Shown here one piece after another: positions 1,409-37,152 of a stretch of 49,897 nucleotides of DNA; position 1 is the first letter of the stretch; each line of letters starts with the position of its first letter. The DNA lies in assembly GCA_008636045.1 (NCBI GenBank), contig SNRW01000007.1, positions 1-49,897 on the forward strand, read 5' to 3'. The notes under the pieces were generated by a model. That model saw only the letters and a program-made list of their open reading frames with translations, had not been told where the DNA came from and searched no databases. Source of the stretch: Streblomastix strix (taxonomy: Eukaryota). A program made the translations under genes and the position numbers.

Positions 1409-2834
1409 TTTATCCTGATTTTTATATAAATAAAATAGAAATTGAAATAATTAATAAGAAAACTAAAAGAGAAAGAATTATAAATTGGTAATTTAGTGTA
1501 TAAAATAAATGGAAATGGCGAAATAAAGCGTTATTTAAGAAAAAAATCTTTTTTAACGTTAGAAAGCATCATATTTATGACGCATTTTGTAAAAATTAAG
1601 TGTCGCGCCTATTGAAGTTGTATAAAATCATGTTAAAATTAAATTTTGATTTATGTAACATGTGTAAGAAATGATATTATGCGAAGAATTTTGAGTAAGC
1701 AATTAAGAAGCAATTATAATTAGGTATAAGTAGAATTGTTGAAAAATTGTTATAAAGATTAATTGCAATATTCAGCATATATCTATTTAGAGTATTGTTA
1801 TGTTGTTCACCCGTATTTTGCAAAATTATATTTTAGCATCATATAACAACTTATAAATAATTTTGAATGTGATATTAGATAAATTTATTAAATGATGATT
1901 GAAAAAGCTCATATCATAGCAAATTTATAATTAATTTATTGGAAAAATTGAATTCCAAAATTGGAGTTTGTAACGCTTCTAATTCTTGTAAAATGTTTCT
2001 ATTAAATATAAATTTATTATTTTTAAATAAATTATTTAATAAATTAATACTATTTCAATATATAATTGTTTACATTCAAATAATAAATTTTTTTTTTATA
2101 TCATTTAATTGAAAAACAACTCGTCAGCTAAGTTATTCAGGATACCAATTATTTAAATATATAACAAATAATCAAATGTCTATTTTTAAACAAGAATTAT
2201 TGCTAAATTAATGCAAATCTGTAATAAACATTAATTAATAAATTTCTCGATACTATTATAAGTTTATTCAAAATCGAATCGATATTGAAATATTGATTTG
2301 TTATCCCCGTATCTCCTTATCTCACCTCTTTATTGAGATATCATTGTGGCTCCAATACGTTCGGTTCGTGTACATGAATCCGACCTATGGGTTGGCCAAT
2401 TTGATGTGGCTAAGAATTCAAATAAGAAAACAACAACTTTACAAAAGTAATAAAAATTACATTTGAGTCCCGGTAAAGAGAGTTCGGCAGAACGAGGCAA
2501 GACAAGAAGAAATTAAAAATATAATAGTCAAAGTGGGAAAAAATTAAATAATAAAAACCCTCTGGGAAAAGTATTGATTAACGTTAATAAAAAACCCAGT
2601 TAAATATATAAAAAATTTAGAAAAACTTTAGAAAAAACTAAATTGAGAGTAAAAAATTGTTTTGAAAAAACTTCTCTCATGGGGAAAATAAATAACTAAG
2701 AGTAAAAAACCCCAATAAAATTGATAAATTAATGGTTTAACTGCTCTCTTGAGGAAAAGAAAATATTGAATCTAATAGAAAAGCATCAGGGAATAGTGGT
2801 ATATGTATAAAATAATTGTTAAACTGTTAAATTA

Positions 2835-3140
2835 AAAAATTAAATGCGCCAATTCTCCATTGACTGTTTTATCATTCTTGAGGATTGGTTTAATTTCACT
2901 CATTCGTATATTTCTTCTTCATATTCGTCGATGCAATTCGTTGACAACATCTCTTTATTGATAATCCGTTATATCCAACTCATCAAACTTTAACAGGGTA
3001 GTGTCCTTATCTCTGTATTATCATTCCATGCGCTCCAGCCCACCATCAACATCATTCGGCTTGTTCGATCAATAATATATAAACTCATCTTCAAATTTGT
3101 TGGATTTTTTTCTATCCTTAATTTGCACATTTCATCTGTC
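2835..3140 (-). pseudogene. Degenerate ORF overlapping the left inverted repeat of the Tc1-like element and running outward from it
   Basis: Protein-like frame NVQIKDRKKSNKFEDEFIYY*SNKPNDVDGGLERME*QYRDKDTTLLKFDELDITDYQQRDVVNELHRRI*RRNIRMSEIKPILKND with three TGA; higher GC than flanks; no recognisable family. Confidence 0.35.
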
Positions 3141-3316
3141 ATGAATACCAATCTATTTATATTAAATAATTTTTAAATAAATGAATTTTATATTATATAT
3201 ATGACTTAATAGTAGCATATCATTAATTAAAGTCCATTTGTCGGGCATACATTGAAAAAATAAAGATGTATTAATTTTGCTCATTAAATATTGAACCAAT
3301 TTATTTGATAAAATCA
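3078..3316. repeat. Left inverted repeat of the Tc1-like element
   Basis: tataaactcatcttcaaatttgttgga...ttatttgataaaatca is the reverse complement, with scattered mismatches, of 4462-4700. Confidence 0.9.
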
Positions 3317-3372
3317 ATTTTTCGTTCGAATGGTTATGTATTTACAAATGCGTAATATATGATGTGAAACTC

Positions 3373-4383
3373 TCATTGTACATATTTTCCTCCTCGCTTT
3401 AACAACTCAGTAAATCTTTTCTAGAACGAGTTATTGAGTAGTAGTATGTCTTTTTTTGTGATTTTCCTTCCTGCTCCTTGAATTCCAGCCCAGAGATCTT
3501 CTTCATTTTCGTAGTTGACTCCATCTTCATATACTTTGCGAACCAAGATTGACCACATGTTTTCGACTGGATTTAGGTCAGGTGATAGCGCTGGCCAGTC
3601 CAGAAATGAAAATCCGTAACTTTCAAGGTCTTTCAAGGTCTCCTTGTTTTTGTGACAGGATGCACTATCCATCTAGTATTTGAATTATTCTCCAAGTTCG
3701 GTATGAATCGATGGAAATACTTAACTTAACAATAGTTCTCTCTATACAACTGCTGTTATGCTTCCTTGCATTCTATCGTGAGACAAAATGCCGGCACTAT
3801 TAATTGTAGCAAGCACCATAACACCTTTGTATTTCCCGTAGTCCTTGCTGTATATCGAATTATCATCCTTCTCATCAAGTGAATACCAATAATAAGCCCA
3901 TCCGTCAGGTCCATCAAATCGAAATTTTTTCTCATCTGAGAAAATAATTTCAGTTTTCTTAGATTGATCATTCAATAAGAATTCTTCTGCAAATTGTATT
4001 CTTTTAGCAATATGTCTTTCCGTTAATTTAGGACGTCTTCTAAGTCTTTTTTTCTTTATTATCATGATATGCAACGTTCGTAATGTTGTCGACGGAGAAC
4101 TGTTAAGTGACAGCACTTTTGTTAATGTTCTATGGGATACTTTTCGATGTTTTTTTCAGATATCTGGAAATTCTTCTAAATGCGCGAACAGCAACCTTTG
4201 GCTTTGGACCTCTCTTTTTCGGTTCAAGGAGATTATTTCGATGAAGTAGCACTTGTCTAACCGTTTCGTAAGGTATTCCTTGCTTTTAAGAGATCTTTGT
4301 GAAAGATAACTTCTTTTTTTCACTCAATTCAATGATTCGCTTTTTCTTCGCCAGTGACAACGCAACGCCTCTAACCTTGCCAT
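3373..4383 (-). pseudogene. Tc1-family DD34E transposase with 5' frameshifts
   Basis: Motifs IIFSDEKKFRFDGPDG, YQMDSASCH (Q encoded by TAG) and WPALSPDLNPVENMW; 34 residues between second D and E. Track ORFs 3742-4116 and 3421-3672 are in one frame joined by TAA/TAG and end at TGA 3373-3375. Frameshifts occur near 4370 and in the homopolymer near 4155. Confidence 0.92.
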
Positions 4384-4461
4384 AAAAATGACATATTAAT
4401 TGAAAATTATTAGAAAAATTAGTAAATTAAACGTTAACGCACTCATACGTTTGATGACTAA

Positions 4462-4700
4462 TGATTTTATCAAATAATTTGGCTCAATATTTAATGGGCA
4501 AAATTAATACATCTTTATTTTTTCAATGTGTGCTCAACAAACAGACTTTAATTAATGATATATTACTAGTAAGTCATATATATAATATAAAATTCATTTA
4601 TTTAAATATTATTTAATATAAATAGATTGGTATTCATGACAGATGAAATGTACAAATTAAGGATAAAAAAATATCCAACAAATTTGAAGCTGAGTTTATA
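4462..4700. repeat. Right inverted repeat of the Tc1-like element, interrupted at 4700
   Basis: Reverse complement of 3078-3316; a short continuation (tatatattatt-atc) reappears at 11853-11866. Confidence 0.9.
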
Positions 4701-4975
4701 GACTGCACCACAGGGCTTTAATTCTGCCACGCTATTTGTAACCATAATCTCCGTGCCAAATGACTTTTATTACTAAGCTCAATTCATCAATGTGATGCAC
4801 AAATGATATTGACAATTCTATATAAATATCCATGACACAAATGAACAAAATTCATTAATGTGAGGCACAAATAACATAGACAATTCTATGTAAATATCTA
4901 TGACACAAATGAAAATAATTTATCAATGTGATACACAAATGATATAGACAATTCTAAGCAAACATCTATGGCACA
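4701..4975. repeat. Left TIR of the PolB element, including three tandem 68-bp units (starts 4781, 4849, 4917)
   Basis: Unit ~aattcatcaatgtgatgcacaaatgatattgacaattctatataaatatccatgacacaaatgaacaa repeated with period 68; each unit has two CACAAATGA-like motifs. Confidence 0.88.
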
Positions 4976-4997
4976 TTCATAATCAAAAATAGTGATA

Positions 4998-7900
4998 TCA
5001 TTAATCAATTAAGTAGTGATCTGCATTAAATTCATACATGAATGGTGCACAACATCCATTAGATAATACTACCATTTTATTATGAATACCTGTTAGCGCT
5101 GACTTTTCTATACTAATCATGGACATTATCCCCATTTTCTTCTAAAAATTATTAGTTGTCACATTGATATTACACCCATCATTCAAGCATTTAATGTAAT
5201 CATCATTTGTTAGATTTGTCTTCTTTTCACTGACTCCTTTCATCCGATTCACTAATGAAACTATGTCTTCATTTTATTCATTTCCATTGTATAGACTATA
5301 ACATTTAGGTGCAAGACAAATGATATTTTCTCCTTATGATTCAGTAGTGAGATTCATTAATCTCTTCTCTTTAGCAACAGTACAATTGTCCCATGGAAGC
5401 CTCTCTTTATTATGCAGGTCATAGAACAGTTAGTCTTTAATCACATACTTCAATCCTTATTTATAACCTTCAGTTTATGATCCAGCAATAGAGAAATACA
5501 TTGAGTCAGTATCCATATTACAGAAGTGAACTCAATTCATATCAATATATTTATAGAGGAAGTTATATATAAAATTTAAAAACCAAAACTTGCTATTATC
5601 CAGTGTAAATACAGCTTCTTGCAATGGCTTATTACACTTAAATTATGTAGGTGACTCACTATTCATATATTATGCTTCTTCAATAACATCACCATCAGAA
5701 TTGTATATATCTTCACTTAATTTTCTAGTTGCCTTATGATCTTATTTCAATTACTTGAGTGATGCTTGTCTAGCATTGTTAAATGATATCCTATCAAATT
5801 TTGCATTATTTTATCCCTCTCCTCCAAAAGCACTATTCAGAATCTATTTGTAGTATAACGATTTTGTATCATTGTGTTGACTAATTGCATCCTATCTTTT
5901 ACTCATCATTGTACACACAAATGATTCAAAACCTAGGTGTTTATCAAATAGGGCTATTGAATCAATGTCATCAATAATTAAATTACAATAGTCAATCAAA
6001 AACCATAAAATGTAACAAGTGAAACATATAAATTGGTTATATGTTGATATTAATGATGTTAGTTTTGTAGTTGATTTGTCAACAGTAAGTTTCTATGATT
6101 TCATCTTATTACACATAAATTCACCTATCTATTCAAATGAATTAAAATATGTCAATTTTCTCCAAATTGTTGCTAAACATTTGTGTGAATTAATATGTTT
6201 TTCATCAATATGACATTAAATTTTGACACAGAACAGTTATCCTTTGTCATTAAATCTATCATCACTCATAATTATATCACGAGCTTTTTTTTTTGAATTA
6301 TTAGATGAACATTTGTAACAATTAATTATTCCACCTGCTTGATATACACTGTGATTTGTATATGAATTATTTTTGTTGAAGAATCCATTATAGACGGAGG
6401 GAAGAAGAGAATTGAAATCTAAGTCAAAAATGTGGGTAACAATATACTAATTATCATATGATGTTATTGTTTTAGTAACATGATTATATATAAGTTTGTT
6501 GATGTGTGTGATACCTTTCAAATTACATTAATGATACACATTAGACAGTCCACCTTACATACATTCCTTTAACATATTTTATACGGATTCGTTGTTAATT
6601 GTCATTGACAGATGTTCATGGATAGCATATTTCATTAATTGTATGTTTAATTTACTAATATCATTATCTTTGTCAGCCTTAACAGTATTACATATTTAAT
6701 AAGCTAGTTAACAGTTCTATTTTGTATGACAAATTGAATTATCAATTCTGTCTAAAGTAGGTTTGTTTTCTTTAGTGAATTTGTTGTGGCATAGAAGACA
6801 TGGCTCCCTAAAAACTTTATCTCTAAACCAATCAATATTATCTTCAGTAACATTATTAATTGTATCCCTCTTAGCAAACTCATCTTGATTAATATATCCT
6901 TTGACTTTGTAATTCCACCAGTATTAAGTAACTTCGAATTATTCAAATCCATTAACTATATTATAACTTGTATTGATAACGAATTTATCATAACAGTACT
7001 TGTATTTAATTTAACTAGCAATTTGAGCTAATGATATTCAACCTAGCATATCAACTTTCTCTTTCCATGTAATTTGAAAAAGATGACTGAGTGGGTTAAT
7101 CATACAAGTAACATCCCTGATATTATAGTGCTTTAGATACTCCCATTTATTTTCAATATTGATTGAATCATTACAGTACTGTTCATAATCTTCGTCACTA
7201 ATATTCTTATTATTAAGTTTGTCAAAGAAATTATCTTTAGTAAATGGAGTTATTAGTCCTAATACCTATTTGTAGTTATCATAATTGAATGATCCATATG
7301 GTAATATACCCTTTGTTAGTTTTATACCTTTAGTACCAAATTTCTCAACGAATTACTTTAATGTGTTGTTTGGTAGGATGAATAATAATATATCGATAAA
7401 TTTCAAGTCAAAATCATAATCTTAATGTGATACTACTGTCTATTAAGCTTATGTTGTTGATCTCATATATTAAATTTTAGTCTTATTTTTAATTAAGTGT
7501 TTTAGTAACAAATTCATTTCAAACTTCTTAGAATTGAATCCTATAACTGACACTTGAGGCTTATATGGAATATAGTTCTTGTCATTGATTAATACTTCTG
7601 GAATATTCGATTAATTAGCTTCATTGACTTTTATAGCAACTTCAAACAATTAACTTATCCATTATTCAATAAAATCAGTTCCGTTTCGTAAATCAAAATA
7701 TAATGTAATAATTTAATCATTTATTGTTTCTGCTGATGCTACAGATAACGGTTCTTATTAAGCTAACACATTGTCTTCATTAGTTATGTTCTCTACTGTC
7801 TCAAAATCAAATGTAATGTAATTTAGTGAAGGAGTTAACTAATCTGATTAGCATGTTGCTACCAATTTCTAGAGTAACTTACTATTTGATATATGTGGAT

Positions 7901-10112
7901 AATATGACTTTGGTAAGTGATCTAATTTAACTAATTTAGATGTCTCAGGACCCTAACAGAACTTCAAATATCTAGCAAGGTCTCGCTTATAATTCTAATT
8001 CTTAGTATTAAATATCATCTAACAGTTGCGTGGACAGAGCTTTCCATTAATTACTTTATCAATATAACTAATATATATCGCATGGATTTCACCTACTAAT
8101 GACAATGGAACTAATAGAACATTAACGGTAAAATAGTCATTATCGATAATGTATTCATCATATTTGTTAAATTATTCGACATTGCAACGATTTGTTTTTT
8201 TATTTTACCTCATCACATGTGTATGTTATTATATTTAATTTGAATATTTGTTGATATCTTTCGAGATCAGTAACTAAATTGAAACGTTTATATGATTCAA
8301 GTAGCTAATTATTAGCTCTATTTAATCTCTAACTTGAGTTAACGTCATAGTATTAGAGAAACAGTTTAAAAGCATCACTAACTCTAGTTCTTGTTTAATC
8401 AATCTCAGGATGTAAAGCAAATGATGCGACTATGAACCAACAAATTTTGTAATCACATTCTACGTTTCTAGTAGTTCCTTTTTTTTTGAAGTGCTAACAT
8501 ATTCTATCCATTTTAGTACCTAACGGCAGTCTATAAACAATAATCAAAAACGAATAAAGTGCTACCTTTAATGTAGTTGAGTCTTCATGAGTTGCGTTTT
8601 AATAATCGGATAGTAAATCAACAACTTTCTATTTGAAATAGTTATTAGTTTGATTATCTCGAACTATAGTGTTAGGTAGAGTCTTGTTACTGTTAACAGC
8701 ACTAGGTCCTGTGTGAGAGTAATGATATTCATCTAATGTTTGTTAATGCTTGTAGATTTATTTCTTTTTCTAACAGATAGATCCAAAATGAATGTATACT
8801 TTATAGGATTTAGCTTTCTCTAACTCATGTACTTAATCAATTTTATCTTTCAGTTGCTATAAGTCATAGAAATGATCGTAATAGTATTAGAAATATGGCT
8901 CTTTATTGAATATATCTTTTGACTTCATTAATTTATCAGATAGTCCTTCAATATTGACTTCATTCTTATTTTAGAATTTCTTGCGTGCCTGAGCTAATGT
9001 GGCATAATAAACTGATAAATTCTATTGTGTGAAGATAACGAATGCTTTCTATTCAAGTTCTCTATTTTTATTTAATTATTGTGTTTTTGTTATATTTGGT
9101 TCATTAAAGTGATCCATATGTAATCCATGTTACTCATCATTAAATATGTAATCCATGTTACTCATCATTAAGCTTTTTAACTCTTCTATTGAATTCTTTA
9201 GCACCTAATTTTGTTTCTAAGAAACTGAGAATTCTAAATGGTTTTTCACTTTATCTCTTATATCTTTAATTGATGAGTATCTATTACAATTATTCGTATA
9301 GCTTATATCTCTTCCATTTGCCTTAAATCACTTTAGCAGCATTTACTTACTATTTCATTATTTATTACGCTAAGTGTCTTCGATAATGCTTTTGGATTAG
9401 AACAGCTGCTTTATTCTATTTCTCTAACTTATCCTTTAATTCTTGTATCTTTTATTGATGTAATTGTTCTTATTAATCTAATTCTTACTAATGTTTCAAT
9501 TATTGTTCATCAAATTATTACTTATAATTCTCATTAATCTCTTTTCGCTACGAACTATGTTCACGGCATAAATGCTATTGAATCTATTCTTCCAAATCAA
9601 ATTTCTCTCTTAATATATTATTAATTGTTTGTAAAGACTCTTATAACTAATGTATCTAGTTAGTTATTTATTGCTGTGCTTGTATCAATTATTATGTACG
9701 TTATCTTCGACCACTTTCTACAAATTTTTATTTATAATTATCTCTGAATTTACTAGAATTGAATAGACCATTATCATCAATATTATCAGGTTAATTCAAA
9801 TCGTTTATAATTTCATCAATACTTGTATTTAATTGTAGTTATTGATCATTAACTGGTTTCATTATTGGTTCGATTATTGGTTCCATTATTGATTATTATT
9901 GATTATTATTAATATTGTTATAGTTTGACTAATTTATTAACGAATGTTGTAATTGTTATACCATTTCTCTTCGAACCTTAATATCCTTATTAGTGAATAT
10001 GAGGTAATAATATATCAAGTGATTACTATCTTGTTGAATGTATTGTTGGGATTGATAAGTGTAATGAGTTAATTAAAGTGTATAATTAGTCAAGAGATAG
10101 GTACTTGTTCAT
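4998..10112 (-). pseudogene. Giant (~1700-codon) protein-primed-type family B DNA polymerase with long N-terminal extension; disrupted
   Basis: With TAR=Gln: ExoI YITFDFETVE (~7800), ExoII VIGFNSKKFE (~7530), KGILPY (~7300), ExoIII YLKHYNIRDV (~7120), motif A DLDFNSLLPS (~6410), motif B YKQILNSAFG (~5840), motif C CNMDTDSMYF (~5510), then APKCY and KGV; final TGA 4998-5000. In-frame TGA at 5532-5534 and 7038-7040; frameshifts in the N-terminal half, including a 28-bp tandem duplication at 9116-9171. Likely ATG at 10112. Confidence 0.9.
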
Positions 10113-10209
10113 TTTACTATAGCAATAAATTAATAAAAAAAAATTTTTTTAAAAGTTGATCAAAAGTTGATTAATAAATGTATGTTTGTCTTTTTATTCT
10201 TAATACAAA

Positions 10210-11082
10210 ATGAGTAAAACTTATGATGATGCTGAAATCAATGAATAAGTATAATATAATGATAATAATAACACCTTTGGTGTCGGCATAAATGCTACCA
10301 ACTCTGTTGGCTCTCATGGTATTGATGAATAATTAACATAAAAATAAAAATCTACTCTATTAAATGAATTATCTTAATTACATGATTCAAAATCAGTTAG
10401 AAAATATTTAATAATTCATCCTCAATTAATGTAAATATCATTACATGAGATGAATACTGCGTTGCGAGTTCCGGATTATTAACTTTCACGAAGAAATGAT
10501 AAATTAATATTATATACTGCTAAACATTTAAAAGAAAAAAGTGACAACAATAATTCTAATATTACTTGAGAATTTGATGATTAAAATTCTAATGAATCTC
10601 CGTAACTAACTCCATCTATACAATAGTCACAGATGATTCCTTAAGTATAGGAATAGCTTAAAAATAAAACACAATAAAATTTATTGATTGATAATGGAAT
10701 ATTTTAAAGTGATTTAGGTTAAATTTTAGAAGCAAGTTTTGAATATTTACGTTAAATAACTGGAATTGATTCAAATATTAGCAATGATTAATATAGTTAG
10801 GTTAGATAGTAATATATTGATAACACTAATCAATACGATATCATAAAAATAGATAAATTAATCACTTTACTTGATTAAACTCTAATTGGATTATACATTA
10901 GAAATATATATTCATTATCAACCCTATTCTTTGAATAAAATTAATACATACATAAATCTTAACATTAATAATTCATTGAATAATTATATAGACAAAATAA
11001 TCCTAAATATCAACAAGAAAGTAATATTGCAGAGAGATTAGGTTTCAAAAAACATAACAATGTATTAAATATACATCAATGA
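10210..11082 (+). pseudogene. ORF2 of the PolB element, 290 codons, unknown function, one in-frame TGA
   Basis: ATG 10210 to TGA 11080-11082 is open with TAR=Gln except TGA at 10567-10569 (MSKTYDDAEINEQ...LLNELSQLHDSKSVRKYLIIHPQL...NIAERLGFKKHNNVLNIHQ); divergent from the PolB start across 97 bp. Confidence 0.7.
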
Positions 11083-11578
11083 TTTAGTAAATCTTTATTT
11101 TTATTCATAATATTTGAAAATATTGATACACAAAGTACTCTCATATTTGAAATTATTTGAAAAATTTTAGCAAATTATTTCATACTACATTTACACACAA
11201 CACTATAGCACTATATTAATTAGTATACATATTAGTGATGGATATAATGATATATACTATTTATATAAACAATTGATATATTTAGTTTATTAGTTAGTGA
11301 AGAAATTATTAGTCAAAATTGTTAAATTTTTTTATAAATTTTGAAAATTACAGGCCTGTAATTCAAATAATTTTGAACATTTTTGAACATTTTTGGTAAT
11401 TATTTCTTATCATTAATTTGATGATAGATATGTAAATAATTTGTTTAGATTATTAAATAACTTTATGAAAATGCTTAATATTCTGAAGTCATAGATTTGA
11501 AACCATAGGTTTGAGTTTCACTAAGCTCTGCTAACTATTTGAGTAACATAAATTGTAAATTTTGATGATTAATGTGTT

Positions 11579-11851
11579 TACTCGAAGTGTAAAAATGCAA
11601 AGCATTATCATTTGAATCATAGGTATTTGAATAGAATTGTTACTCGAAGAGTCAGAATGCAAAGCGTTATCCATATCATTTGTGTATTACATTGATGAAT
11701 TATGTTCATTTGTATCATAGATATTTGTATAGAATTGTCCATATCATTTGAGAATTACTTTGATGAATTGATCATTAGTTGCAAAAGTCATTTGGTATGG
11801 AGATTATGGTTACAATTAGCGCGGCAGAATTAGTAGACTGTGATGCAGCCC
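11579..11851. repeat. Right TIR of the PolB element (~11665-11851) plus a subterminal 62-bp-period repeat
   Basis: Reverse complement of 4701-~4890; tactcgaag...aatgcaaagc.ttatc occurs at 11579 and 11641. Confidence 0.85.
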
Positions 11852-11892
11852 ATATATATTATTATCATTAGTTGCAGGTTCAAATAAAAGAG

Positions 11893-12680
11893 TTTCAATT
11901 ACTGTTCAGCTAATAATTACTTATAATTCTCAATAATTTCCTTTGGCTAGTCTTTAGGCTATTCAATTTCATTATCCAAATCAAATTCTTCTCTTAAAAT
12001 ATCATTAAATGTTTATAGTTACTCATAAAGCTAATGTATCTAGTTAGTGATTTATTATTATGCTTGCAACATTTATTACATGCGCTATCTTTGACCACTT
12101 TCATCATATTTTTATATATAATTAGCTCTGTACTTATCAGGATTGAATACATCTTCATCATAAATATTGTCAGACAAGCTCAATTTATTTATAATATGAT
12201 TAATATTTTTGGCTGATTTTAGTTTTTTTCATTAGTTTCATTAATGTTCAACTATTATTATGAATTCATCAATACTTATAATTAATTATGGTAACTGTTA
12301 ATCATTATTCAACTATTATTACTATTCATTAACTTCTTCAGTTATTGGCTATAAATTGGTTACTGTTATTGTTCATTAATGATCAACTATTATTGCAATT
12401 CATTAACTGTTTCTATTATTGGCTATAATTAGGGTTTTTGTTATTGTTCAACGAATTCTAATTTTTATTACTGTTAGTCATTTCTTTCAGCAACAAATTG
12501 ATTTACAAATGCAACTATTTCAGATATAATAGTTATGTGGTCTTAGTAATGTAATCATTATAATTCATTAGTTAACATATTTCTTAATTCAACTACTGTA
12601 TGATTGCGTTGGTATACAACTTATAATTGATCTAGTAAATTTTAAATCTATGTTTTATTCATTCGATACTTCTCCAACAT
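11893..12680 (-). pseudogene. N-terminal fragment of a second PolB-type ORF
   Basis: ESGQRQRMQQMLQAQQQITNQIHQLYEQLQTFNDILREEFDL aligns with ESGRRQRTQQLIQAQQQITNQIHQLQESLQTINNILREKFDL at ~9590-9720; ATG 12680; in-frame TGA 12555-12557; truncated near 11893. Confidence 0.78.
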
Positions 12681-12750
12681 TTTATGATAAGATAAAAAAT
12701 AAGTTTTTTGTTAGAATTTGCCGCAGTTTAGTATTTTTATTTTTTAATAA

Positions 12751-13080
12751 ATGACATAAGAATGGTAGTCGTTATTAACGTAAATTCCATCAATCAAATC
12801 AATTAAAGAAAAGCATTAATTTGTAGAAAAGAATTATGAATTGATATCTAAAGCAAAAGCGTTCACATTGAATAAATACATGACAATATCATTATTTAAA
12901 TTTTATTATAAAAATAATCGATTAGATGTTTATCATATAACAGAACATAAATTATACCATTGCAAGCAAGTTGAATTATTGCAATAGACAGCTAATTAAC
13001 TTAGTGATTAGAATGAAGATATTAATGAAAATTCTGGTGGATTATATATTATTTTTATCCATAATATTTTTAATTATTGA
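12751..13080 (+). CDS. 109-aa ORF2-like protein of the second element
   Basis: Open ATG 12751 to TGA 13078-13080 (MTQEWQSLLTQIPSIKSIKEKHQFVEKNYELISKAKAFTLNKYMTISLFKFYYKNNRLDVYH...); syntenic with ORF2 and has a similar hydrophobic pattern by eye. Confidence 0.55.
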
Positions 13081-13857
13081 TACTTAAAGTACACACGTAT
13101 TTGAAAATATTTGAAAAAATTTGATAATTTATTTCATACTATTTTTATACACAACCCTACAGCACTATCCTAATTGCTATTCATATTAATGATGTATGTA
13201 GTGATATAGACTATACATATAAGTAATTGATATAATTAGTCTATTAGTTAGTGAAGAAATTAACAGTTAAAATTGCTAAATTTTTTTATAAATTTTGAAA
13301 ATAAGACATTTATAATTCAAATCATTTTGAATATTTTTGATCTTTTTTTAAATATTAATCCATATCATTTGTGCAATACAGGAATTTAATTGAGCAATAA
13401 TGGAAATTAATTGTTCAATAAAGAAATTTAAATGTTCAATAAAGGAAAAAATAACTACCATAGAATTTAATTATTACTCGATGTCATTATCCTTATATTT
13501 ATTTAATACGTATATAAAAAAATCAGGAGTATATTTCAGTCCAAGTATTTTTCACAATTATTTCAGTTTGCTTTCTACATTAAGAAGTTTGTTAATATAA
13601 AAAGTAAATAATTCAATTAACCAATATATTCAACTATTTTCCAATCTCTGAGCAACTTTAGGAACCAATAGGATTTATTCTGCTGTGAAGCGATGATTAG
13701 GATTCTAGATATAAGAAATTTAATAGAATAAATGTAACTTAAATACTGATTTTAATTTGAAAAAAAAAAAACATTTTAAATAAAACATTCAGAATTGATT
13801 ATGAATAATTTTACACTCATTAATTAATTTATTCGAAATTTAGTAAAATTTATAAAA

Positions 13858-16800
13858 TCAATCACTACTTTCATCTTATTAGTCTTCATTAAGGTCATTT
13901 TCATCTTCCTCTAAATTTGAATCTTCATCTTTATCCATTTCCTTTATTTCATCATTATCAGAACTTTCATTCAATTCTTCTCTTTCTTCACTTATTTCAA
14001 TTTATTTATTTTCATCTTCTTCCTCACTAGTTCCATTTTATATATCATCATCTTCATCATCATCTTCTTCTTCATCATCATCATCATCATCATCTTTTTT
14101 ATTATTATCATCAATATTATCACTATCTTCTTAATTATCTTTTTCATTACTAATGTCTTCATCATCTTCTTCATTCTCAACTTTACCTTCTTTTTCATCA
14201 TCGCTGAAGTCTTCATATAATTTTTTACTTATATCCAATTCTTTCTTCATTGATTTCTTTGCTTTTTTGTCTTTAATTTCAATTTTCTTTATTTTTTTCT
14301 TCTACAAATTTTTAATTTGTTTTGTTTCTTATTCATTCTAGCCATCAATATTGATTACATATAAAGCATTGCTGTTCAAATTAATTTTATTATCTTTTTC
14401 TTTATCATTTCTAAGTTATGTTAAATTCATATATTTTCTTATTTTATTACCATCGTCATCATAATCACCAAAATCATCATTATTATTGAATAAATATTGT
14501 TCAATCAAACTTTTATTATTAACTTCTTTATTATAATCTTTATATATCTCTTATGTATTATTCAATTATTATTATCCAATCTAATTTTCATTCATTTTTT
14601 GCATTATTCTCTGATTATTCTTAATCAATATTTATCCTTCTAATAAATTGAAGGATATTCTGGCCTATTTGATCTGAATGATATTTTGGGTTCTTTCTTT
14701 TATTGATCTCTGGAATGAGAGGATCAGTTGTTTGGATGGAAGATGAAGACGGATGAAATCTGAATATAGGAAAAATAAAATAATATATTTTATATATTAT
14801 ATTTTATGATTGAGAAATGCTAATAAATAATATAAATATATTTATGATATTCAAATTCACACTTCCATGCACTTGTAAAATAATTCGTAACCATCTCAAT
14901 TTCTGAATTAATTACAAATATGATATAATATAATATATAATTTTATAGAAAATTAATTAATTAATTATTATTCATTCATTCATACTTGCTTCATTTACTT
15001 GTATTTCTAAGTTTCATTTTCTTCGATTTAATTCTTTTCATCTTCTTAATTCTCAGTTTAATTGCCTTATTTTTATTTATCAATTATATTTTATTCACAG
15101 AGTATTTTAATGAGAAGATGTATAATATTTGGAGGGAGTGAAGTAATTGTAGCCTATAAATGAATAATAATAATATGGAATATTAGAAAATATTAGTAAT
15201 AGAAAGTATATAATACAATATCTAATGTAATATTTGTTAATATATTAATCATAATTTCAATTCTATTAAAATAATTCAATTATATAAACCAACAAACTTT
15301 AATAACATCACTAGATTACTCATTCAGGATCAGTCTAATTGAATTTGTATTTGATGAAATGAGAGCTTGAGATAAAAGTGTTGAGAGAGACAATGAAGAT
15401 TAATTAATTTATTATTACTATTATTATTATTATATCTCTGATTATTATTATTTTTATTTATTAATTTTTTTTTCATTCTTTTATGATAATGGTGTTATTT
15501 GAGATTATTATTATTATTATACTTGTAATTGAATGATTATTGGAAATAGAGGTTCAGAATGAATCAGTGCTGAATCAGAATATTTAGAAGAAATAAATAT
15601 AAATATAAATAAAAGATAAATAATTTTAACAATATGAATTATTGAATATTAGTAGAAAATTAATCAATTAATATATATTTATATTTATATCTCATTCATA
15701 CATGTTTATTCATTTCCTCTACTTTCATTTTCTAATTTGTTATTCATATCTTTAACTTCCCCATTAAATTCTTATTCTTGTTCATCTTTATCTTATCCTT
15801 CATTCTTTCCTTCTTCGCCACCTATTATATATAATAGTAATAATAATAATATAGAAATTAATAAAATATGACTCAATTAATATATAAATTATAAACTAGT
15901 ATAAAACTAATGATAAAAATTATATAATATAATAAAATGAGCTATTAATATTCATAAACCATATGTTCTAACAACGAATGTTGGGCTTACGAAGTTTCCA
16001 ACCAACATTTTAATCTTATTCCAATGAACAATGAAGTTAGAATTAATAATATTTTATTGCTTATTACTAATCATCTGTGAAATATCAGTTTGAGCAACAA
16101 CAAGTGGCATTATTGATAAGATTCCTATTGCAATAAATATAAAACATATAAATTTGATATAAATGCAATAATAATAATATTATTATTATTAAATAAATAA
16201 ATAAATAAATAATAATAGTTAATATCATAATATAAAAATAATAATTATAATAAATCTATATTAGTAAATAAAATAAATAAATAAATAAATAAATAATAAT
16301 AAATATAAATATAACACCATTAATCATTCCTCTTCCTCCTTTACTCATTATTCCCAATCTCCCTTCAGATGCATATTGTCTGTTAAGCCCTCTTTTCTTG
16401 GCCTAATATTATATATGTTATTATATTGGATGTATATAAGAAATAATGGATGGAATAAATATAATTAAATAAATAATAATATATTATAAAATATTGAATA
16501 TAAGAAATAATGGATGGAATAAATATAATTAAATAAATAATAATATATTATAAAATATTGAATATAAGAAATAATGGATGGAATAAATATAATTAAATAA
16601 ATAATAATATATTATAAAATATTGAATATAAGAAATAATGGATGGAATAAATATAATTAANNNNNNNNNNTAAATAATAATATATTATAAAATATTGAAT
16701 ATAAGAAATAATGGATGGAATAAATATAATTAAATAAATAATAATATATTATAAAATATTGAATATAAGAAATAATGGATGGAATAAATATAATTAATTA

Positions 16801-19339
16801 AATAATAGATATTATAAGCATTTATATTTAAATTAATTAATAAAACCAATTATTATATTTCCACAAATAATAAATAAATAAATTCATACATTCTGATCTA
16901 AAGCAGATATTTCAACTTCTCTTCTCAACTGTCTTCCTCTTTATTTGTTCATTGGAGCCAATTATTAACTTGAATTTGAATGGGACAAAGATTATTATTA
17001 CTTTTATTATTATTGATTGGATTATGAATCATTTGAATTCAAAGGAATAAAAGAAGAATCGGTTGATTATTATTAATATTAATATTATTATATGGAATTT
17101 GATTTCAACTTATTTTCATATATCTGATCATATCTAATTGTGAAATGTGGTGATATTGGTATCAGAGAATGATTGGAAAGTTTATAGTTTGATTAAACCA
17201 ATTATTGTTATTTTTGAGATATAAGTTATAATTATGGTTATTTTGATTATTTTATATTCATATTTTTATTTCCTTTTATATTTCTCCATATGAATACATC
17301 TCCAGATATTCCAAGAATGAACATTGAATATTATGATTAATTATAGATTTTATTACTTTAATTTACAATTTCATCTTCTTACTCTTTTTCTTCATTTTCT
17401 TCTTAATTTTTATCCTTTTTCATTTATTTCTTCTTTTTCTTGGTAATTTTCTTTTGTTCTTTAACAATTAATTTCTGATTAATATTCTCCTTTTCAATAT
17501 TATTTTATTTCTTCTATTTATTTTCATTACTTTTATTCATTTCTATTTATTTGAATATGTGCAATTGATATACTGGAGATGGCGAGAGAAATTCAGATAT
17601 TGGATATTAATATTATAGCTTATTACTAATTTAATCTATTTAATTAAATTAATTTTCACTTTGGACAATTTTTTCAGAATATTATTTATTTAATCTATCT
17701 TTGTTATTATTATTATTACTATATTCACAATTATATTCCCACATGTAAACTGGTGAACTACTTTTGTTAGGATAAGTTGACCCAATCTATTATTAAATAA
17801 TATAATAAGTAAAAGAGAAATATAATAAAATAAGATAATAATAAATAAAACATAATTATTAATAAAATATTTAATAAACAAATCCAAATAATTAATTATA
17901 AATATTAATAAATACTTTTTCTCCAATCTTCAGCATAGTGTGTGAAAGAGGCAATATTGTCTAATTGATGTGGAATGAAGGGAGAAGCAACGATCCAGCA
18001 AATGAGAACTGCAATATTGACTTTTTTGTTTAATTGACTTCCTTATCATTTTTATTTATTTTTATGTTGTTATTCGATTACTTCATATTCTAATTCATTA
18101 TTACTGGTTCCTGTATCCAATACAATTATCCAATTGGAAGTGGAGATGGAGAAAAGAATGTTGCAATTTTCTTCGCTTTATTTTAATTAGAATTATTTTA
18201 ATGAGAAATTGAATGATTTTCATTCAAATTTTCAACATTTCTGTTGTTTTCTTCAGATAAATTGAATTACCACAGTTAAATACAATGTCTGTTTAAATCT
18301 TCATCAACAATTTCATCATATTTATTATTATTCAATCCATCTTTTTCTTTTTCTTAACCTTTCTCTCTTTAATCTTTCTCCAATTAATAATCCACCTCTG
18401 ATTAGTAATTAGAATATGAAGAGAACAATGATGATGAGGATGCAATTGACACCAGAATAAAATATGGTTCTGCGAATATGGCTGAAATAACGAACTACTT
18501 CTGCCCAGAGAGTATTCCTTATAATGTGTGCGTAAACTAAGGGAGAATTGAGAATGTTATGAGTGGTTGAATATATGTGTGTTATTAATCTTATTATTAT
18601 TATTATTATTATTATTATAATTATTATTACTGTTAAAATGATTAACTATGTTATTATTGAAGAGTTTATATAGATGATGATGATTAAATTGGTTATTAAA
18701 TTGGTTATTATAATGAAGATGAAGATTGCTATGATAAGTTGTTATTGTTATTATAGATTGAAACATATCCACTCATTTTAACAATTATTAATGATTTATT
18801 AGTATTTCTTATTTACTAATCAATTTTCTAATTTTAATCATTAATTTATTCATTGTTCTATCTCAATGAAATGATATTGACAACTGGTGATTTATTTATT
18901 GTAGATGAATATGAAGAAGATTCAGAATAAGAAGAAGATTATATTTATTAATGTTTTTGAAGTCCTTCAGAATTTATCAGTGTTGGTGCACCATGATAAT
19001 CAGCAATGTCCCAAATATACACATTTCCTTCACTGTTTCCAGCAGCGAGGCATTTCTGATTTTAATATGAAAATAATGAAATGATAATAAGATAAAATAT
19101 TATGAATAAAAAAGAAATGAAAAGAAATAAATAAATAAAAATTAAAAAATTTGAATATATCAAACATTTCCTTCGCTTTATGAATCTATCCATCTCATAC
19201 ATGTCCAATCTCTAGCTGCATTTGCAATGCGAAGTGTCCGTCTGAGTTTTCCAGTTATTGTGTCCCAAACTTTTATCGATCGGTCGGGTGTAGAAGCAGC
19301 AAAAAGATCTGCTGATTTATTAAAACACGCAAGTGCCAT
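13858..19339 (-). CDS. Multi-exon WD40-repeat protein with Utp12-like C-terminal domain and acidic tail (WDR43/UTP5-like small-subunit processome component)
   Basis: N-terminal MALACFNKSADLFAASTPDRSIKVWDTITGKL...WTCMRW and CLAAGNSEGNVYIWDI; SLSTLLSQALISSNTNSIRLIL (~15325-15395) resembles the Utp12 domain start; D/E-rich tail ends at TGA 13858-13860; GT-AG introns. Not every exon was traced. Confidence 0.7.
16434..16800. repeat. Intronic 64-bp tandem repeat spanning an assembly gap (N x10 at 16661-16670)
   Basis: aaataatggatggaataaatataattaaataaataataatatattataaaatattgaatataag recurs at 16441, 16505, 16569, 16633 and twice after the gap. Confidence 0.92.
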
Positions 19340-19932: not shown

Positions 19933-22900
19933 TCAACGATTATTACGTTTGAAGATATTTGATATCAAACTCTTTAATTCATGTCCGATAGTTGTCTCAT
20001 CATCCCATTGATTCCTTTATACCTTCAAATGTGCTTCAATTTCTTCATTAAGACCTTCTGCTTCACTTTATTCTTCTGATTCCTTGAAAAGAACCAGTTG
20101 TGTTGAAGATGATGGTCAATTTGGATCTGTTTCTCCAACTGTATGAAGAAGAGCAATTAGGAAATTGTTTAAGTTATTAAATGCTCTGTAAATCTCATTA
20201 TCATTTTCAACTTCATTTCCACCACAAGATGAAATTGAGAATGAAAGAGCACCTGCATAGAATGATTGACAAAGTTGGAATTTTGCAGTATTATCACCAT
20301 TCATTTGAATATAACTAAGATCTTACCTACTGAAGTTTCTAATGCTAACTATGTCTTTCTCATCATTCTGAAATGAATTTGATCCTAATTTGTAATTGCT
20401 TAACTTTACTAATGAGGAAATCAGATTTGGTGATGTGGATGCTATTTAACAAGCAGTAGAATTGTCTCTGATAAGAATTTAAAGAAGATTTAATGAAGAA
20501 ATAACGACAGTTACTGAAGAGAATGATATTATCAGCTGAGAAAGATGTTAAATAATATTGTGTTTGTCAATGAGGAAATGTTGGAACATGAGTTTGTTTG
20601 AAGCAACTACTGCAAGTGCATTTAATGATGCTGCTTATAACTGTTATATTCCAGGAGATGCTTGAAATGCAAGACGATGTTTGCAAAATAACTCAACTGG
20701 ACAATTGATATGAATTAGATATATTATTCTTTCACAAATTAGTATACCAATATTCTGAGGAATCTTGAATTCATAATAATTATCTTTTATTATAAATTAT
20801 CCAATTGAATCAATTGATTTCACAATTTTCATTATTTATTTATCAAATTTTTCAATTTATTCTTCTGTTCTTATTTATTTAAAATATTCCTTTCTATTAT
20901 TAATTAATTAATCCAAATTATGGACGATATTCTACTACATTACTTTTGAACATGCATCTTCCATTTCTGTTTCAAACGGACCACACTTATTAAGCTATAT
21001 ATATATCTGAGTTAAAAGAACAACAGTATTTGAATATATAATATTATCATCTACTTATTCTTCTTATTCTATTTTATCTATAATTAATTATTCAATCATA
21101 TTAATTAGTCCAGATTCTTCAAAGATATCGAAGAATACATTAATGTGTTATTATTAATCCCCTTTTTCTGATAATTTTTCAATAATATTAAGAAGAATCC
21201 TTTAATATTCAGAAGTGCAGTCTCCAATTCTTTTCAGAATTATATCAATCATCCAAATATCAAATATCTTTATTAATTCATTAATTTCTTTATTCTTTAT
21301 ATCTTCAATTAATTATTATGCTTTTGATTATTTTTCTTATTCGGGTTATAATCTACTTCCAAGAATGTAAGAATCACTTTTATCCTTTATTTTGATGATT
21401 CCTTTTTTCATTTCATCTTTAATTTAATATCCTTCCATCATGTTCAAATATAATTTCATCAATTATTCTGTGATTTCAGAAAAAGGAATATTATCATTTT
21501 CTTTTTCTTCTTATTCTATTTTCTTTTATATTAATTATTCAATCTTCACTAATAGCCTAGATTTTTGAAAGATAATCTAGAATTCATTATCATCATATTA
21601 TTGAATTCCTTTTTCTATTAATTATTTAATAATATTAATAATAATCTTTTCTGATTCAGAAGAGCAATTTCCAATTCGTTTAATAATTAAATTTAGAACC
21701 CTAATATCAAATATTTGTCCAATATCATTTTCTTCGTAATATGCAAAATTAGTGTATAATTCTTCGAGAGTAACAAAACTTTGCAGATTAATCACTTACA
21801 TGCGAAATTTTTCCAGAGAACTATTATAGTCTTCTTCATTTTAACCCCAAAATCTCCTTGGTCTGAATACACCTTGATGTTACCTCCTAAAAAATCCCCT
21901 CTAATATCCCTTATACCCAGGTTATCCTTATCCAAATCTTCTTCTGTAAGGAAGAAATTGTTCTTCATCATCGATCTACTGGTTATCAAAATAATCTCGT
22001 TTCCATTCTGGTTGGATTTCATTTATATCAATATTCCATTATTTATCATCCAAAATCTATGGACAAAAGATCTAATTCTTCTGATCTAAATAATGCAATT
22101 CAATTCTGATTTTTCTTCCATCCAATTCATACCCATTAAGCTGCTATTGAGCTCGATTTGCAGTTTCAAAGTCTTCCATATCAACAAACCCAAAACCACG
22201 AGGTACACCATTAAAAGTTGGAATAGTCGCACATTTTCTGGGAATAATTATTAGAATAAATAAGTATGCACTAATAATATATAAAAATACATAATCCCAA
22301 TTGTCTCAAATAATTTCCCAATCGTCTATGCAGTTGTAAATGTATCTAGATTTCTAATAAATAATCTTGAAGTCATCGATTGAGTTTCACCTAAAAAGAA
22401 AATAAAAAATATTTATGAATATTATTAAATAAATATTTTAATAATGAATATAGAATAAAAGTATGAAACTAATATCATACAATCTGCATTTGAGAGAATT
22501 CTTAATGGAAAATGAAGTATTTCAGTGGGATAATCATCTTATTCTTCTTTCTAATAAAATAAATAAAAAATTAGAAAAATGAATAATGATGATAAATTTA
22601 TTTAAACTTATATTACAATAATTAAAAATTAATAATAATTAAAAAATTATTTTTTCATCTGATTGAACTTCAGTTTCTCTATTATCGAAAGGCGCACTTC
22701 TTCTTTCTAACAATGGTGAACCATCCTATTTATTATTTCTAAATCTTCTGAATCCATCTAGACTTTTATTCTATTTTCTTGTTTGTATTTCTTTATCCAA
22801 CTTTTGGAAATTGTTCTTTTATTCTTTTGATAATTCTACACGAAGTTGCCTTCCTTCCAATTCATACCCATTAAGCTGCTATTGAGCTCGATTTGCAGTT

Positions 22901-23843
22901 TCAAAGTCTTCCATATCAACAAACCCAAAACCGAGAGATGTACCATTAAAAGATGCAATAGTCGCACTTTTTCTAGGAATAATTAATAGAATAAATAAGT
23001 TTGCACTAATAATATATCAACATACACAATCCCTACTGTCTAAAATAGATGTGCTATCGTCTCTGTAGTTGTCATTGAATCTAGATTTCCAATAAATATT
23101 CTTGGTGTCTCTGTTAGAATTTATGTTAAAAAGAAAAAAATTATTTATGAATATTATTAAATAAATATTTTAATAATGAATATAGAATAAAAGTATGAAA
23201 CTAATATCATACAATCTGCATTTGAGAGAATTCTTAATGGAAAATGAAGTATTTCAGTGGGATAATCATCTTATTCTTCTTTCTAATAAAATAAATAAAA
23301 AATTAGAAAAATGAATAATGATGATAAATTTATTTAAACTTATATTACAATAATTAAAAATTAATAATAATTAAAAAATTATTTTTTCATCTGATTGAAC
23401 TTCAGTTTCTCTATTATCGAAAGGCGCACTTCTTCTTTCTAACAATGGTGAACCATCCTATTTATTATTTCTAAATCTTCTGAATCCATCTAGACCTTTA
23501 CTCTAATTCCTTATTTGTATTTCTCCATCCAACTTTTGAAAATTGTTCTTTTATTCTTGTGACAATTATATACGAAGCTGCCTTCCTTCCAATTCATACC
23601 CATTAAGCTGTTATTGGGCTCTATTTGCAGTTTCAAAGTCTTCCATATCAACAAATCCAAAACCGAGGGATGCGTCATTAAAAGTTGCAATATTCGCACT
23701 TTTTCTAGGAATAATTATTAGAATAAATAAGTATGCACTAATAATATATCAACATACACAATCCCTATTGTCTCAAATAATTTCCCAATCGTCTCTGCAC
23801 TTGTCTATGCGTTTAGATTTCCAATAAATAATCTTGATGTCAT
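19933..23843 (-). CDS. Multi-exon protein: three tandem RRM domains, an R/G/F-rich linker and lineage-specific helical domains; in-frame TGA at 20116-20118
   Basis: Each RRM has RNP2 (L/I)FI(G/R)NL and RNP1 (L/R)GFGFVDM, then QQQLNGYEL(E/D)GR. The third RRM runs without a break into a ~2.3-kb frame ending at TGA 19933-19935. Confidence 0.8.
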
Positions 23844-23870
23844 CGATTGTGTTTCACCTAAAAAGAAAAA
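22095..23870. repeat. Tandem ~720-bp exon/intron units carrying the RRM (two full copies and one partial)
   Basis: 22410-22770 and 23135-23495 are nearly identical including introns; RRM exons recur near 22100-22390, 22850-23110 and 23570-23855. Confidence 0.9.
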
Positions 23871-24637
23871 AATTCATATAAATTAGTCAAAAAAGCAGTT
23901 TACAACGTGCTTTTTTCCAATTTTAATAAAAAATTAAGTGAATGGATAATTCTGTTATTTGCTAATTAAATATGATAATTATTTATATTTAATAAGATAA
24001 TTAATATAATTCTGTTTAAATAATGAACTTATTTGAAAAATTATATAAGTATTGCCGAGAAAAAGCGATAAAAATAATAAAATTTTCATTCTAAGATAAA
24101 AATAAATAATTAATAAAATAATATCATCAACTAGCTAAGTATATATTTAAGAAATTTACTATTCCTACTTCAAACCTTATATATACTTCTGTCAATATAA
24201 TTCAATTTCCTTGTCAACAACAGACCAATATTGTAACAGCTTTATTTATTTTGAATGTCGTTTGCTTAATCATAATTTATTAATAAACGTTTATATGTGT
24301 ATTTTTAACTTTAAGCAGAAAAATCAGCAATTTAAATTAATTCGAAATTTTTCTCGTTAATAAATGAAATTAGATGATAATTAAGAAGATTTTTCAAACA
24401 AAAGGCAAATTTTCGAATTTATTTATTTAAATATAACAAACATTACAATATTTTGATATCATAATTAATGTTCTATTTGTTTTTTACTTTTAATTTAATA
24501 CATATAATCACCATGGCGATAACATTTGAGTTTTACTAACATAATTTATTTATTGTTTGTATTTTTGCTATTTCAATAAATATTTAACAATTTATTTCTT
24601 CATTTTTTTGATCTTTATTTGCTTTATTCGTCAGAAA

Positions 24638-29794: not shown

Positions 29795-37152
<7,358 letters not shown>

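What the first reader, a model, noticed from the sequence alone, without database searches (positions are those of the whole stretch)
6678..6800. HNH/zinc-binding nuclease-like module embedded in the polymerase between ExoIII and motif A
Seen in frame with the polymerase: CLLCHNKFTKENKPTLDRIDNSICHTKQNCQLAYQICNTVK. Established: CxxC...(T/S)LDRID...H...N...CxxCN..K is the pattern of HNH (beta-beta-alpha-metal) endonucleases; here one Cys of the second pair reads as Tyr. Inference: a nuclease inside the PolB could nick or resolve replication intermediates, or provide an integrase-independent way into the chromosome.
Basis: partly seen in the sequence, partly recalled or inferred. Interest (0 to 1): 0.75.

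Follow-up and report, generated by a model that had tools for sequence, protein, structure and literature searches.

The report
PacI-like nuclease inside Polinton polymerase
A broken copy of a virus-like transposon's DNA polymerase, likely from a termite-gut protist, carries a built-in zinc-binding domain with a predicted DNA-cutting fold; this layout is already published for worm and water-mould elements, but here it is kept in nearly all close relatives, including those of Trichomonas, and likely helps the element copy its own DNA.

Summary
Real, and of a known kind. Read with TAA/TAG=Gln, window 9964-4998 (minus strand) is a protein-primed PolB pseudogene (two frameshifts, two stops), 84% identical to Streblomastix strix proteins, inside a 7.2-kb element with terminal inverted repeats. 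Between ExoIII and motif A lies a ~120-aa His-Me finger: the model (pLDDT 88) matches PacI best (Z 8.2), and the family profile aligns PacI's D-R..Y..N..CxxCN with D-R..H..N..CxxCN. The same architecture (PacI-like HNH between Exo_III and Pol_A) was published for nematode and oomycete Polinton pPolB2 (Jeong 2023). New here: 76 of 77 relatives spanning the site carry it, including Trichomonas vaginalis Maverick-type polymerases, against the paper's claim of an oomycete-nematode-only trait. I could not obtain nematode or oomycete sequences, so shared origin is inferred. It co-occurs with integrase-like genes in 4 loci, so it is not simply an integrase substitute. Activity is untested. The scan held no look-alike by sequence; two notes describe other nuclease-polymerase fusions.

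The parts
4998..9964 (-). [quoted passage not shown]
   Evidence: tblastn with P0001/P0168 in three frames; model of 7826-5001 pLDDT 87, best solved match phi29 polymerase Z 21.3
6610..6950 (-). PacI-like His-Me finger (HNH) domain inserted in the polymerase: N-terminal helix with Y..QD, CxxC, P-T-L-D-R, H, N, CxxCN, C-terminal helix
6789..6800 (-). First zinc pair CxxC
   Evidence: 38/38 and 37/38 in homologues
6747..6752 (-). Asp-Arg, aligned to PacI chain residues 92-93
   Evidence: 38/38 each; alignment
6726..6728 (-). His aligned to the loop Tyr of PacI (chain residue 100); candidate general base or nucleophile position
   Evidence: 38/38; role inferred from PMC5714182
6687..6701 (-). Second zinc pair and Asn (Y-x-x-C-N here; C-x-x-C-N in relatives)
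7113..7808 (-). 3'-5' exonuclease motifs I (DFE, 7808-7800), II (Glu here, Asp in 31/32 homologues) and III (Y...D, 7127-7113)
5505..6419 (-). Polymerase motifs A (D at 6419; Leu here where 37/37 homologues have Tyr), B (K..N..G) and C (DTD, 5513-5505)
4697..4975 (.). Left terminal inverted repeat with three 68-bp tandem units
11604..11854 (.). Right terminal inverted repeat (82% to the left over 188 nt)
10210..11082 (+). Second reading frame of the element (about 290 aa, one in-frame TGA), no family assigned

Best explanation
This is a PacI-like zinc-binding HNH domain built into the protein-primed DNA polymerase of a metamonad Polinton-type element, kept in nearly all relatives, and in intact copies it likely works as a polymerase-tethered nicking nuclease on the element's own replication intermediates; this copy is a broken gene. 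Shown: sequence, position, fold prediction, conservation, co-inheritance with the polymerase, pseudogene state. Inferred: two CxxC pairs bind zinc; Asp and the final Asn hold the catalytic metal; Arg stands where most HNH enzymes have the general-base His, and the invariant loop His would do the job that a loop Tyr does in PacI. Inferred further: being carried on the strand-displacing polymerase, it would cut one strand of branched, hairpin or panhandle forms made while the linear, TIR-bounded genome is copied out of the chromosome or replicated. It probably began as a homing endonuclease and was domesticated long ago.
For: Fold and motif. Polymerase type. Conservation: nine motif residues at 37-38 of 38 homologues, as strict as the polymerase's catalytic residues (38 rows chosen from the 65 hits, leaving out mostly partial or degraded S. 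strix copies). Presence: 76 of 77 site-spanning proteins from polymerase-wide queries, 139 of 140 in all; the exception has an internal deletion. Co-inheritance: identity matrices of insert and polymerase correlate at rho 0.60 (0 of 2000 permutations as high; same-size polymerase windows 0.59-0.71), and 9 of 13 well-supported insert splits are in the polymerase tree. dN/dS of the insert 0.015-0.33 in 7 of 7 pairs. His rather than Tyr in 244 versus 4 polymerase-linked hits and 9 of 9 helicase-fused ones, against 16 His / 15 Tyr in other long proteins: the His type goes with replication proteins. No Hint/intein family among Pfam hits.
Against: No activity has been measured. PacI matches are modest (profile E 0.022; Z 8.2, near the level common for unrelated models, though most of the next rows are also HNH proteins). 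The insert is less constrained than the rest of the polymerase in 6 of 7 pairs, and 5 of the 7 pairs come from one family. Only 13 of 33 insert splits overall match the polymerase tree. Related phage families are annotated as sigma-factor decoys, not nucleases (16 of 18 members hit phrog_4592). Many protein-primed polymerases work without such a domain, so no step strictly needs it. The queries included the insert, which biases the presence count upward. The substrate is a guess.
Confidence: 0.5

Rival explanations
1. A still-selfish or competitive homing endonuclease: the in-frame domain cuts insert-free polymerase genes of rival Polintons or co-infecting viruses and so spreads or excludes them; the polymerase merely tolerates it.
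For: Krupovic 2024 read such inserts as remnants of intein invasions; different nucleases sit at different places in pPolBs (HNH before Pol_A, VSR after it); HNH and GIY-YIG fusions to PLV replication proteins are common; weaker constraint than the polymerase.
Against: Fixed in 76 of 77 relatives over 30-45% identity with residues intact, where a homing enzyme without empty targets should decay (general knowledge); co-inherited with the polymerase; no splicing domain found.
Confidence: 0.2
2. A catalytically dead His-Me finger kept as a zinc-stabilised DNA-binding or protein-binding module (for example a processivity or origin-binding aid).
For: The canonical general-base His is Arg and PacI's Tyr is absent; groups lacking both are inactive (PMC5714182); related phage proteins are annotated as sigma decoys.
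Against: An invariant His occupies the Tyr position, and Asp, Arg and both Asn are invariant in 38 of 38, more than a binding module would usually need.
Confidence: 0.18
3. One reading: the domain nicks host DNA and lets integrase-less elements insert by polymerase-driven copying or recombination.
For: This 7.2-kb element has no integrase, ATPase or capsid match; L017 is TIR-bounded at 11.8 kb with ATPase but no hit to the relatives' integrase profile, and 20 of 26 metagenome loci had no such hit (many are partial contigs).
Against: The same intact domain is in polymerases beside integrase-like genes in L001, L002, L003 and L011 (weak Pfam rve support, 3 of 6, best E 0.034) and T. vaginalis pPolB2 are listed with adjacent INT. 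TIR-bounded non-autonomous elements normally borrow an integrase in trans (general knowledge).
Confidence: 0.12

Closest known systems
HNH-bearing pPolB2 of terrestrial nematode and oomycete Polintons (Jeong et al. 2023, PMC10748475)
   Same: Protein-primed PolB; HNH between Exo_III and Pol_A (label order in Suppl. Figs 1 and 9); same structural match, PacI 3M7K; zinc Cys and PacI catalytic residues conserved 'except a Tyr' (Suppl. Fig 10 legend).
   Different: Host lineage (oxymonad, parabasalid and gut-metagenome elements), which the paper excludes from the HNH trait; window element lacks INT, ATPase and capsid genes. Residue-level identity of the insertion site could not be tested.
PacI restriction endonuclease / His-Me finger group 20 (PMC5714182)
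   Same: Fold (Z 8.2, 107 aligned), D-R in place of D-H, two CxxC, N-terminal helices.
   Different: His instead of the loop Tyr; embedded in a polymerase rather than a free dimeric enzyme; specificity unknown.
pPolB-S1H ('Tlr1-like helicase') proteins of Polinton-like viruses with C-terminal HNH (PMC11161782)
   Same: His-type D-R HNH with the same upstream Y..QD helix on a replication protein (P0131, P0142, P0144, P0145, P0148, P0308).
   Different: Terminal rather than internal; those proteins have a helicase and no exonuclease.
Group I Maverick pPolB with VSR insertion (as described in PMC10328495; PMC10748475)
   Same: A nuclease domain fixed inside a Polinton polymerase.
   Different: Different fold (VSR) and position (after Pol_A).

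Membership tests
His-Me finger (HNH) superfamily | beta-beta-alpha fold | tested here: met
   Model E80-84, E96-100, H101-107 at pLDDT >90; PacI, Gme HNH, Cas9 HNH, McrA, EndoVII among VIA rows
His-Me finger (HNH) superfamily | General-base His at the end of strand 1 | tested here: not met
   Arg in 38/38, as in PacI; so it is not a canonical HNH
His-Me finger (HNH) superfamily | Metal-binding Asn/His on the helix and structural Asn | tested here: met
   Both Asn 38/38, aligned to PacI chain residues 104 and 113
His-Me finger (HNH) superfamily | Metal-dependent nuclease activity | not testable with these tools
   needs an assay
PacI-like group 20 | D-R motif with two CxxC zinc pairs | tested here: met
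   one Cys is lost in this copy only
PacI-like group 20 | Catalytic Tyr in the loop | tested here: not met
   His in 38/38 and 244 His versus 4 Tyr: PacI-like, not a group 20 member in the strict sense
Protein-primed PolB | phi29-type exonuclease and palm with motifs Exo I-III, A, B, C | tested here: met
   phi29 Z 21.3 versus 12.9 for the next family; bidnavirus-type, adintovirus and tectivirus polymerases top the viral list
Protein-primed PolB | N-terminal terminal-protein and vOTU domains | not tested
   N-terminal 700 residues were not folded
pPolB2 with HNH (Jeong 2023) | HNH between Exo_III and Pol_A | tested here: met
pPolB2 with HNH (Jeong 2023) | Placement in the pPolB2 clade; same insertion event as nematode and oomycete proteins | tested here: inconclusive
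   No nematode or oomycete sequence was retrieved. Indirect: T. vaginalis relatives of 1148-1155 aa match the lengths of the paper's T. vaginalis pPolB2; Atlas lead to an oomycete cluster at 0.87
Polinton/Maverick (complete element) | Terminal inverted repeats | tested here: met
   4697-4975 / 11604-11854
Polinton/Maverick (complete element) | Integrase, packaging ATPase, capsid genes | tested here: not met
   No match in the window to relatives' integrase profile, ATPases or capsid-like proteins; a reduced derivative, not a complete Polinton
Polinton/Maverick (complete element) | 5-8 bp target-site duplication | tested here: inconclusive
   Left end abuts a Tc1 element and right end a decayed second copy
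Intein-borne homing endonuclease | Hint splicing domain flanking the nuclease | tested here: not met
   No intein family in Pfam scans; the ~125-aa insert is filled by the HNH fold

The most novel reading that the evidence does not exclude
The His-type PacI-like domain is an ancient, active part of the pPolB2 replicase, shared by descent from metamonad to oomycete and nematode Polintons, and it lets small integrase-less TIR elements such as this 7.2-kb one cut themselves out of, or copy themselves into, chromosomes with the polymerase alone.
Probability: 0.15. Interest if true: 0.7.

Novelty: new member of a known kind. Interest (0 to 1): 0.35.

Why it matters
The architecture is published, so the finding itself is not a surprise. 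It matters in two smaller ways. First, Jeong et al. call the HNH a unique shared trait of oomycete and nematode pPolB2 and use it to support gene transfer between those phyla; finding it at the same place in oxymonad, Trichomonas and many gut-metagenome polymerases suggests it is older and wider, which weakens that one argument (their tree evidence stands). Second, its near-universal, strict conservation and the His-for-Tyr change argue that it is a working part of the replicase rather than an intein scar, and give exact residues and intact natural copies for a first assay of why Polinton polymerases carry nucleases.

Tried and rejected
Standard code: no long frame; table 6 used. No own genome held. 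Pfam gave no family for the window's polymerase pieces or insert; phmmer on PDB gave no HNH. IMG/VR scan with the polymerase alignment: 528 pattern matches, none confirmed; with the insert: 20 loci, all free-standing small proteins, none a polymerase, mostly Tyr-type. Attempts to reach nematode/oomycete pPolB2 failed because close relatives filled the lists; the paper's alignments are pictures and could not be read. Atlas rows under 0.9 are leads only. A tree of 59 HNH domains was mostly unresolved (bootstrap not converged); it only weakly separates Tyr-type free proteins from the His-type replication-linked ones. Integrase identity of the relatives' gene got no PHROG, NCBIfam or full-length Pfam/PDB support and only weak core hits; it rests partly on motifs recalled from knowledge. 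The shuffle test (1 real, 0 in 200) used a pattern fitted to the observation and carries little weight. No RNA holder listed. Assembly error as the cause of the breaks was rejected for the 8197 frameshift, where a contig matches 8097-8397 with no difference; the other breaks were not checked this way. Foldseek on PDB was never run. Shen 2010 and Kapitonov 2006 are not held.

Full report
Observation. The window has no long frames in the standard code but reads well with TAA/TAG as Gln. On the minus strand, 8543-4998 is one frame with two TGA stops, and 6800-6678 gives exactly the peptide reported. The best database relatives are Streblomastix strix proteins at up to 84% identity; Bellas et al. 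note that endogenous viruses of this oxymonad use the same code (PMC10120064, passages). The full gene runs from about 9964 to 4998 with frameshifts near 9145 and 8197. It also has Glu for the ExoII Asp and Leu for the motif A Tyr. A contig of run X1 matches 8097-8397 with no difference, so that break is in the DNA. This copy is a pseudogene.

The polymerase. A model of 7826-5001 (X at stops, 39-row alignment) has pLDDT 87 and pTM 0.84. Its best solved match is phi29 polymerase (Z 21.3, rmsd 3.8, 526 aligned; next family 12.9), and the top viral matches are bidnavirus-type, adintovirus, MELD-virus and tectivirus polymerases. It is a protein-primed PolB.

The insert. It lies between ExoIII and the GG motif before motif A and spans about 6950-6610. 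Folded alone it reaches pLDDT 88. Against 48,161 solved chains the best match is PacI (Z 8.2, rmsd 3.4, 107 aligned); rank 2 is unrelated (Z 6.0), rank 3 the Gme nicking HNH (5.5), and Cas9, McrA and EndoVII domains follow. A profile of 18 inserts also ranks PacI first in PDB (E 0.022) and aligns PacI D-R(92-93), Y100, N104, CxxC-N113 with D-R, H, N, CxxC-N. PHROGs endonuclease VII and HNH families hit 18 of 18 members, the window's at E 7e-9; Pfam HNH hits 5 of 18 weakly and not the window. In PacI a loop Tyr replaces the general-base His (PMC5714182 and PMC3384342, passages); that this is residue 100 is my reading of the alignment and recall.

Conservation. Among 38 homologues chosen from the 65 hits (27 left out, mostly partial or degraded S. 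strix copies; all rows are shown), the four Cys, Asp, Arg, His and two Asn are kept in 37-38 of 38. The window's Tyr is Cys in all 38 and in 97% of laid depth in run X1. Of proteins that span the site, 76 of 77 from polymerase-wide queries and 139 of 140 in all carry the domain; the queries included the insert, so this is biased upward. Insert and polymerase distances correlate (rho 0.60, 0 of 2000 permutations; control windows 0.59-0.71); 9 of 13 supported, but only 13 of 33 total, insert splits match the polymerase tree. dN/dS is 0.015-0.33 in 7 pairs, higher than the rest of the polymerase in 6 of them. His at the PacI Tyr position is found in 244 polymerase-linked hits against 4 Tyr (n about 260), in 9 of 9 helicase-fused proteins, and in 16 against 15 Tyr of 33 other long proteins.

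Range. The family includes S. strix, many gut-metagenome proteins and Trichomonas vaginalis: cluster P0066 has 350 members, and full-length members of 1148 and 1155 aa carry the intact domain at the same site. These lengths match the T. vaginalis pPolB2 rows of Jeong et al. (29 rows seen), so they are probably the same Maverick polymerases; this link is inferred. The profile finds 8180 proteins at E 0.001 and 327 at 1e-10 among 1.84 billion; distant ones are free phage and giant-virus proteins or C-terminal domains of PLV polymerase-helicase fusions.

Context. The gene lies in a 7.2-kb element with inverted repeats at 4697-4975 and 11604-11854, one further unknown frame, a Tc1 transposon against its left end and a decayed second copy to the right. 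No integrase, ATPase or capsid match was found in the window. Of 26 related metagenome loci, several have an A32-type ATPase and 6 have an integrase-like gene; 4 of those 6 show the HNH-bearing polymerase on the same contig. The integrase call rests on recalled motifs and weak hits (Pfam rve 3 of 6, best E 0.034; PDB integrases E 0.6-1.5). The other 20 loci, many partial but including TIR-bounded L017, gave no hit to that profile.

How it likely works. Shown: an HNH-fold domain with strictly kept zinc and active-site-type residues, inherited with the polymerase. Inferred: it is an active, single-site nuclease using His where PacI uses Tyr, carried by the strand-displacing polymerase to nick branched or folded-back intermediates of the element's own replication or release (0.5). 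Rivals: homing or competitive nuclease (0.2), dead DNA-binding module (0.18), integrase substitute (0.12).

What is known. Jeong et al. 2023 (PMC10748475; passages, section 8, supplement text and legends; alignment figures are pictures I could not see) report a PacI-like HNH in nematode and oomycete pPolB2, labelled between Exo_III and Pol_A, with PacI's residues conserved 'except a Tyr', and call it a unique synapomorphy 'to the exclusion of other pPolB2s'. Krupovic et al. 2024 (PMC11161782, passages) note diverse nuclease inserts in pPolBs and HNH on PLV helicase fusions and suggest intein invasion. PMC10328495 describes the VSR insert; PMC12220804 HNH-helicase fusions. Passages of PMC12721341, PMC5718144, PMC8502044, PMC3671162, PMC11296320 and bioRxiv 10.64898/2026.07.28.741278 held nothing on this insert. 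Seven searches listed no paper reporting it in metamonad polymerases; subscription papers, Repbase and Kapitonov 2006 were not available and may do so.

Verdict. Observation confirmed; interpretation partly supported; new member of a known kind. The addition is the wide, fixed presence in metamonad polymerases and a defined His-type active site to test. Without nematode or oomycete sequences the shared origin remains inferred. Interest 0.35.

Noticed in passing
window 9412-9300 (-): The polymerase's N-terminal coiled-coil region carries an IQ calmodulin-binding motif above Pfam's cut-off (23.9 bits), followed by a second IQ-like stretch; both are also in S. strix copies P0168 and P0172.
   Followed up: partly
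window 4697-11854: A 7.2-kb TIR-bounded element with only the polymerase and one unknown frame; laid contigs are deep over the polymerase and thin over the second frame, hinting at a large family with variable right halves.
   Followed up: partly
window 3078-4700: Tc1/mariner element (DDE_3 E 7e-13, 239-nt inverted repeats, TA ends) directly abutting the left TIR.
   Followed up: partly
window 11892-13380: Decayed second copy of the element's right half in the same orientation, with the polymerase's N-terminal part.
   Followed up: partly
L001, L002, L003, L011, L023, L024: Integrase-like proteins have Asp where DDE integrases have the Glu (HNKxID), by my reading of the alignment.
   Followed up: no
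L017 1-11850; L012; L013: Polinton-like elements with ATPase and a capsid-sized gene but no hit to the relatives' integrase profile; L017 is bounded by 142-bp TIRs; L012 and L013 have about 100-bp repeats between genes.
   Followed up: partly
Atlas: A mostly arthropod cluster has DNA_pol_B_2 (59%) with Endonuclease_7 (43%): possibly another His-Me finger fused to Polinton polymerases; score 0.79, lead only.
   Followed up: no
P0047, P0049, P0060, P0051: Some relatives are about 2050 aa with a long extra C-terminal region after the polymerase.
   Followed up: no
window 2500-3070: Another high-depth repeat left of the Tc1 element, not identified.
   Followed up: no
window 16406-16871; 20116-23873; 30874-37266; 37965-46925: Host context: 64-bp tandem array, repeated RRM genes, an intron-split ABC transporter, and a long membrane-anchored protein with no Pfam family.
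   Followed up: no
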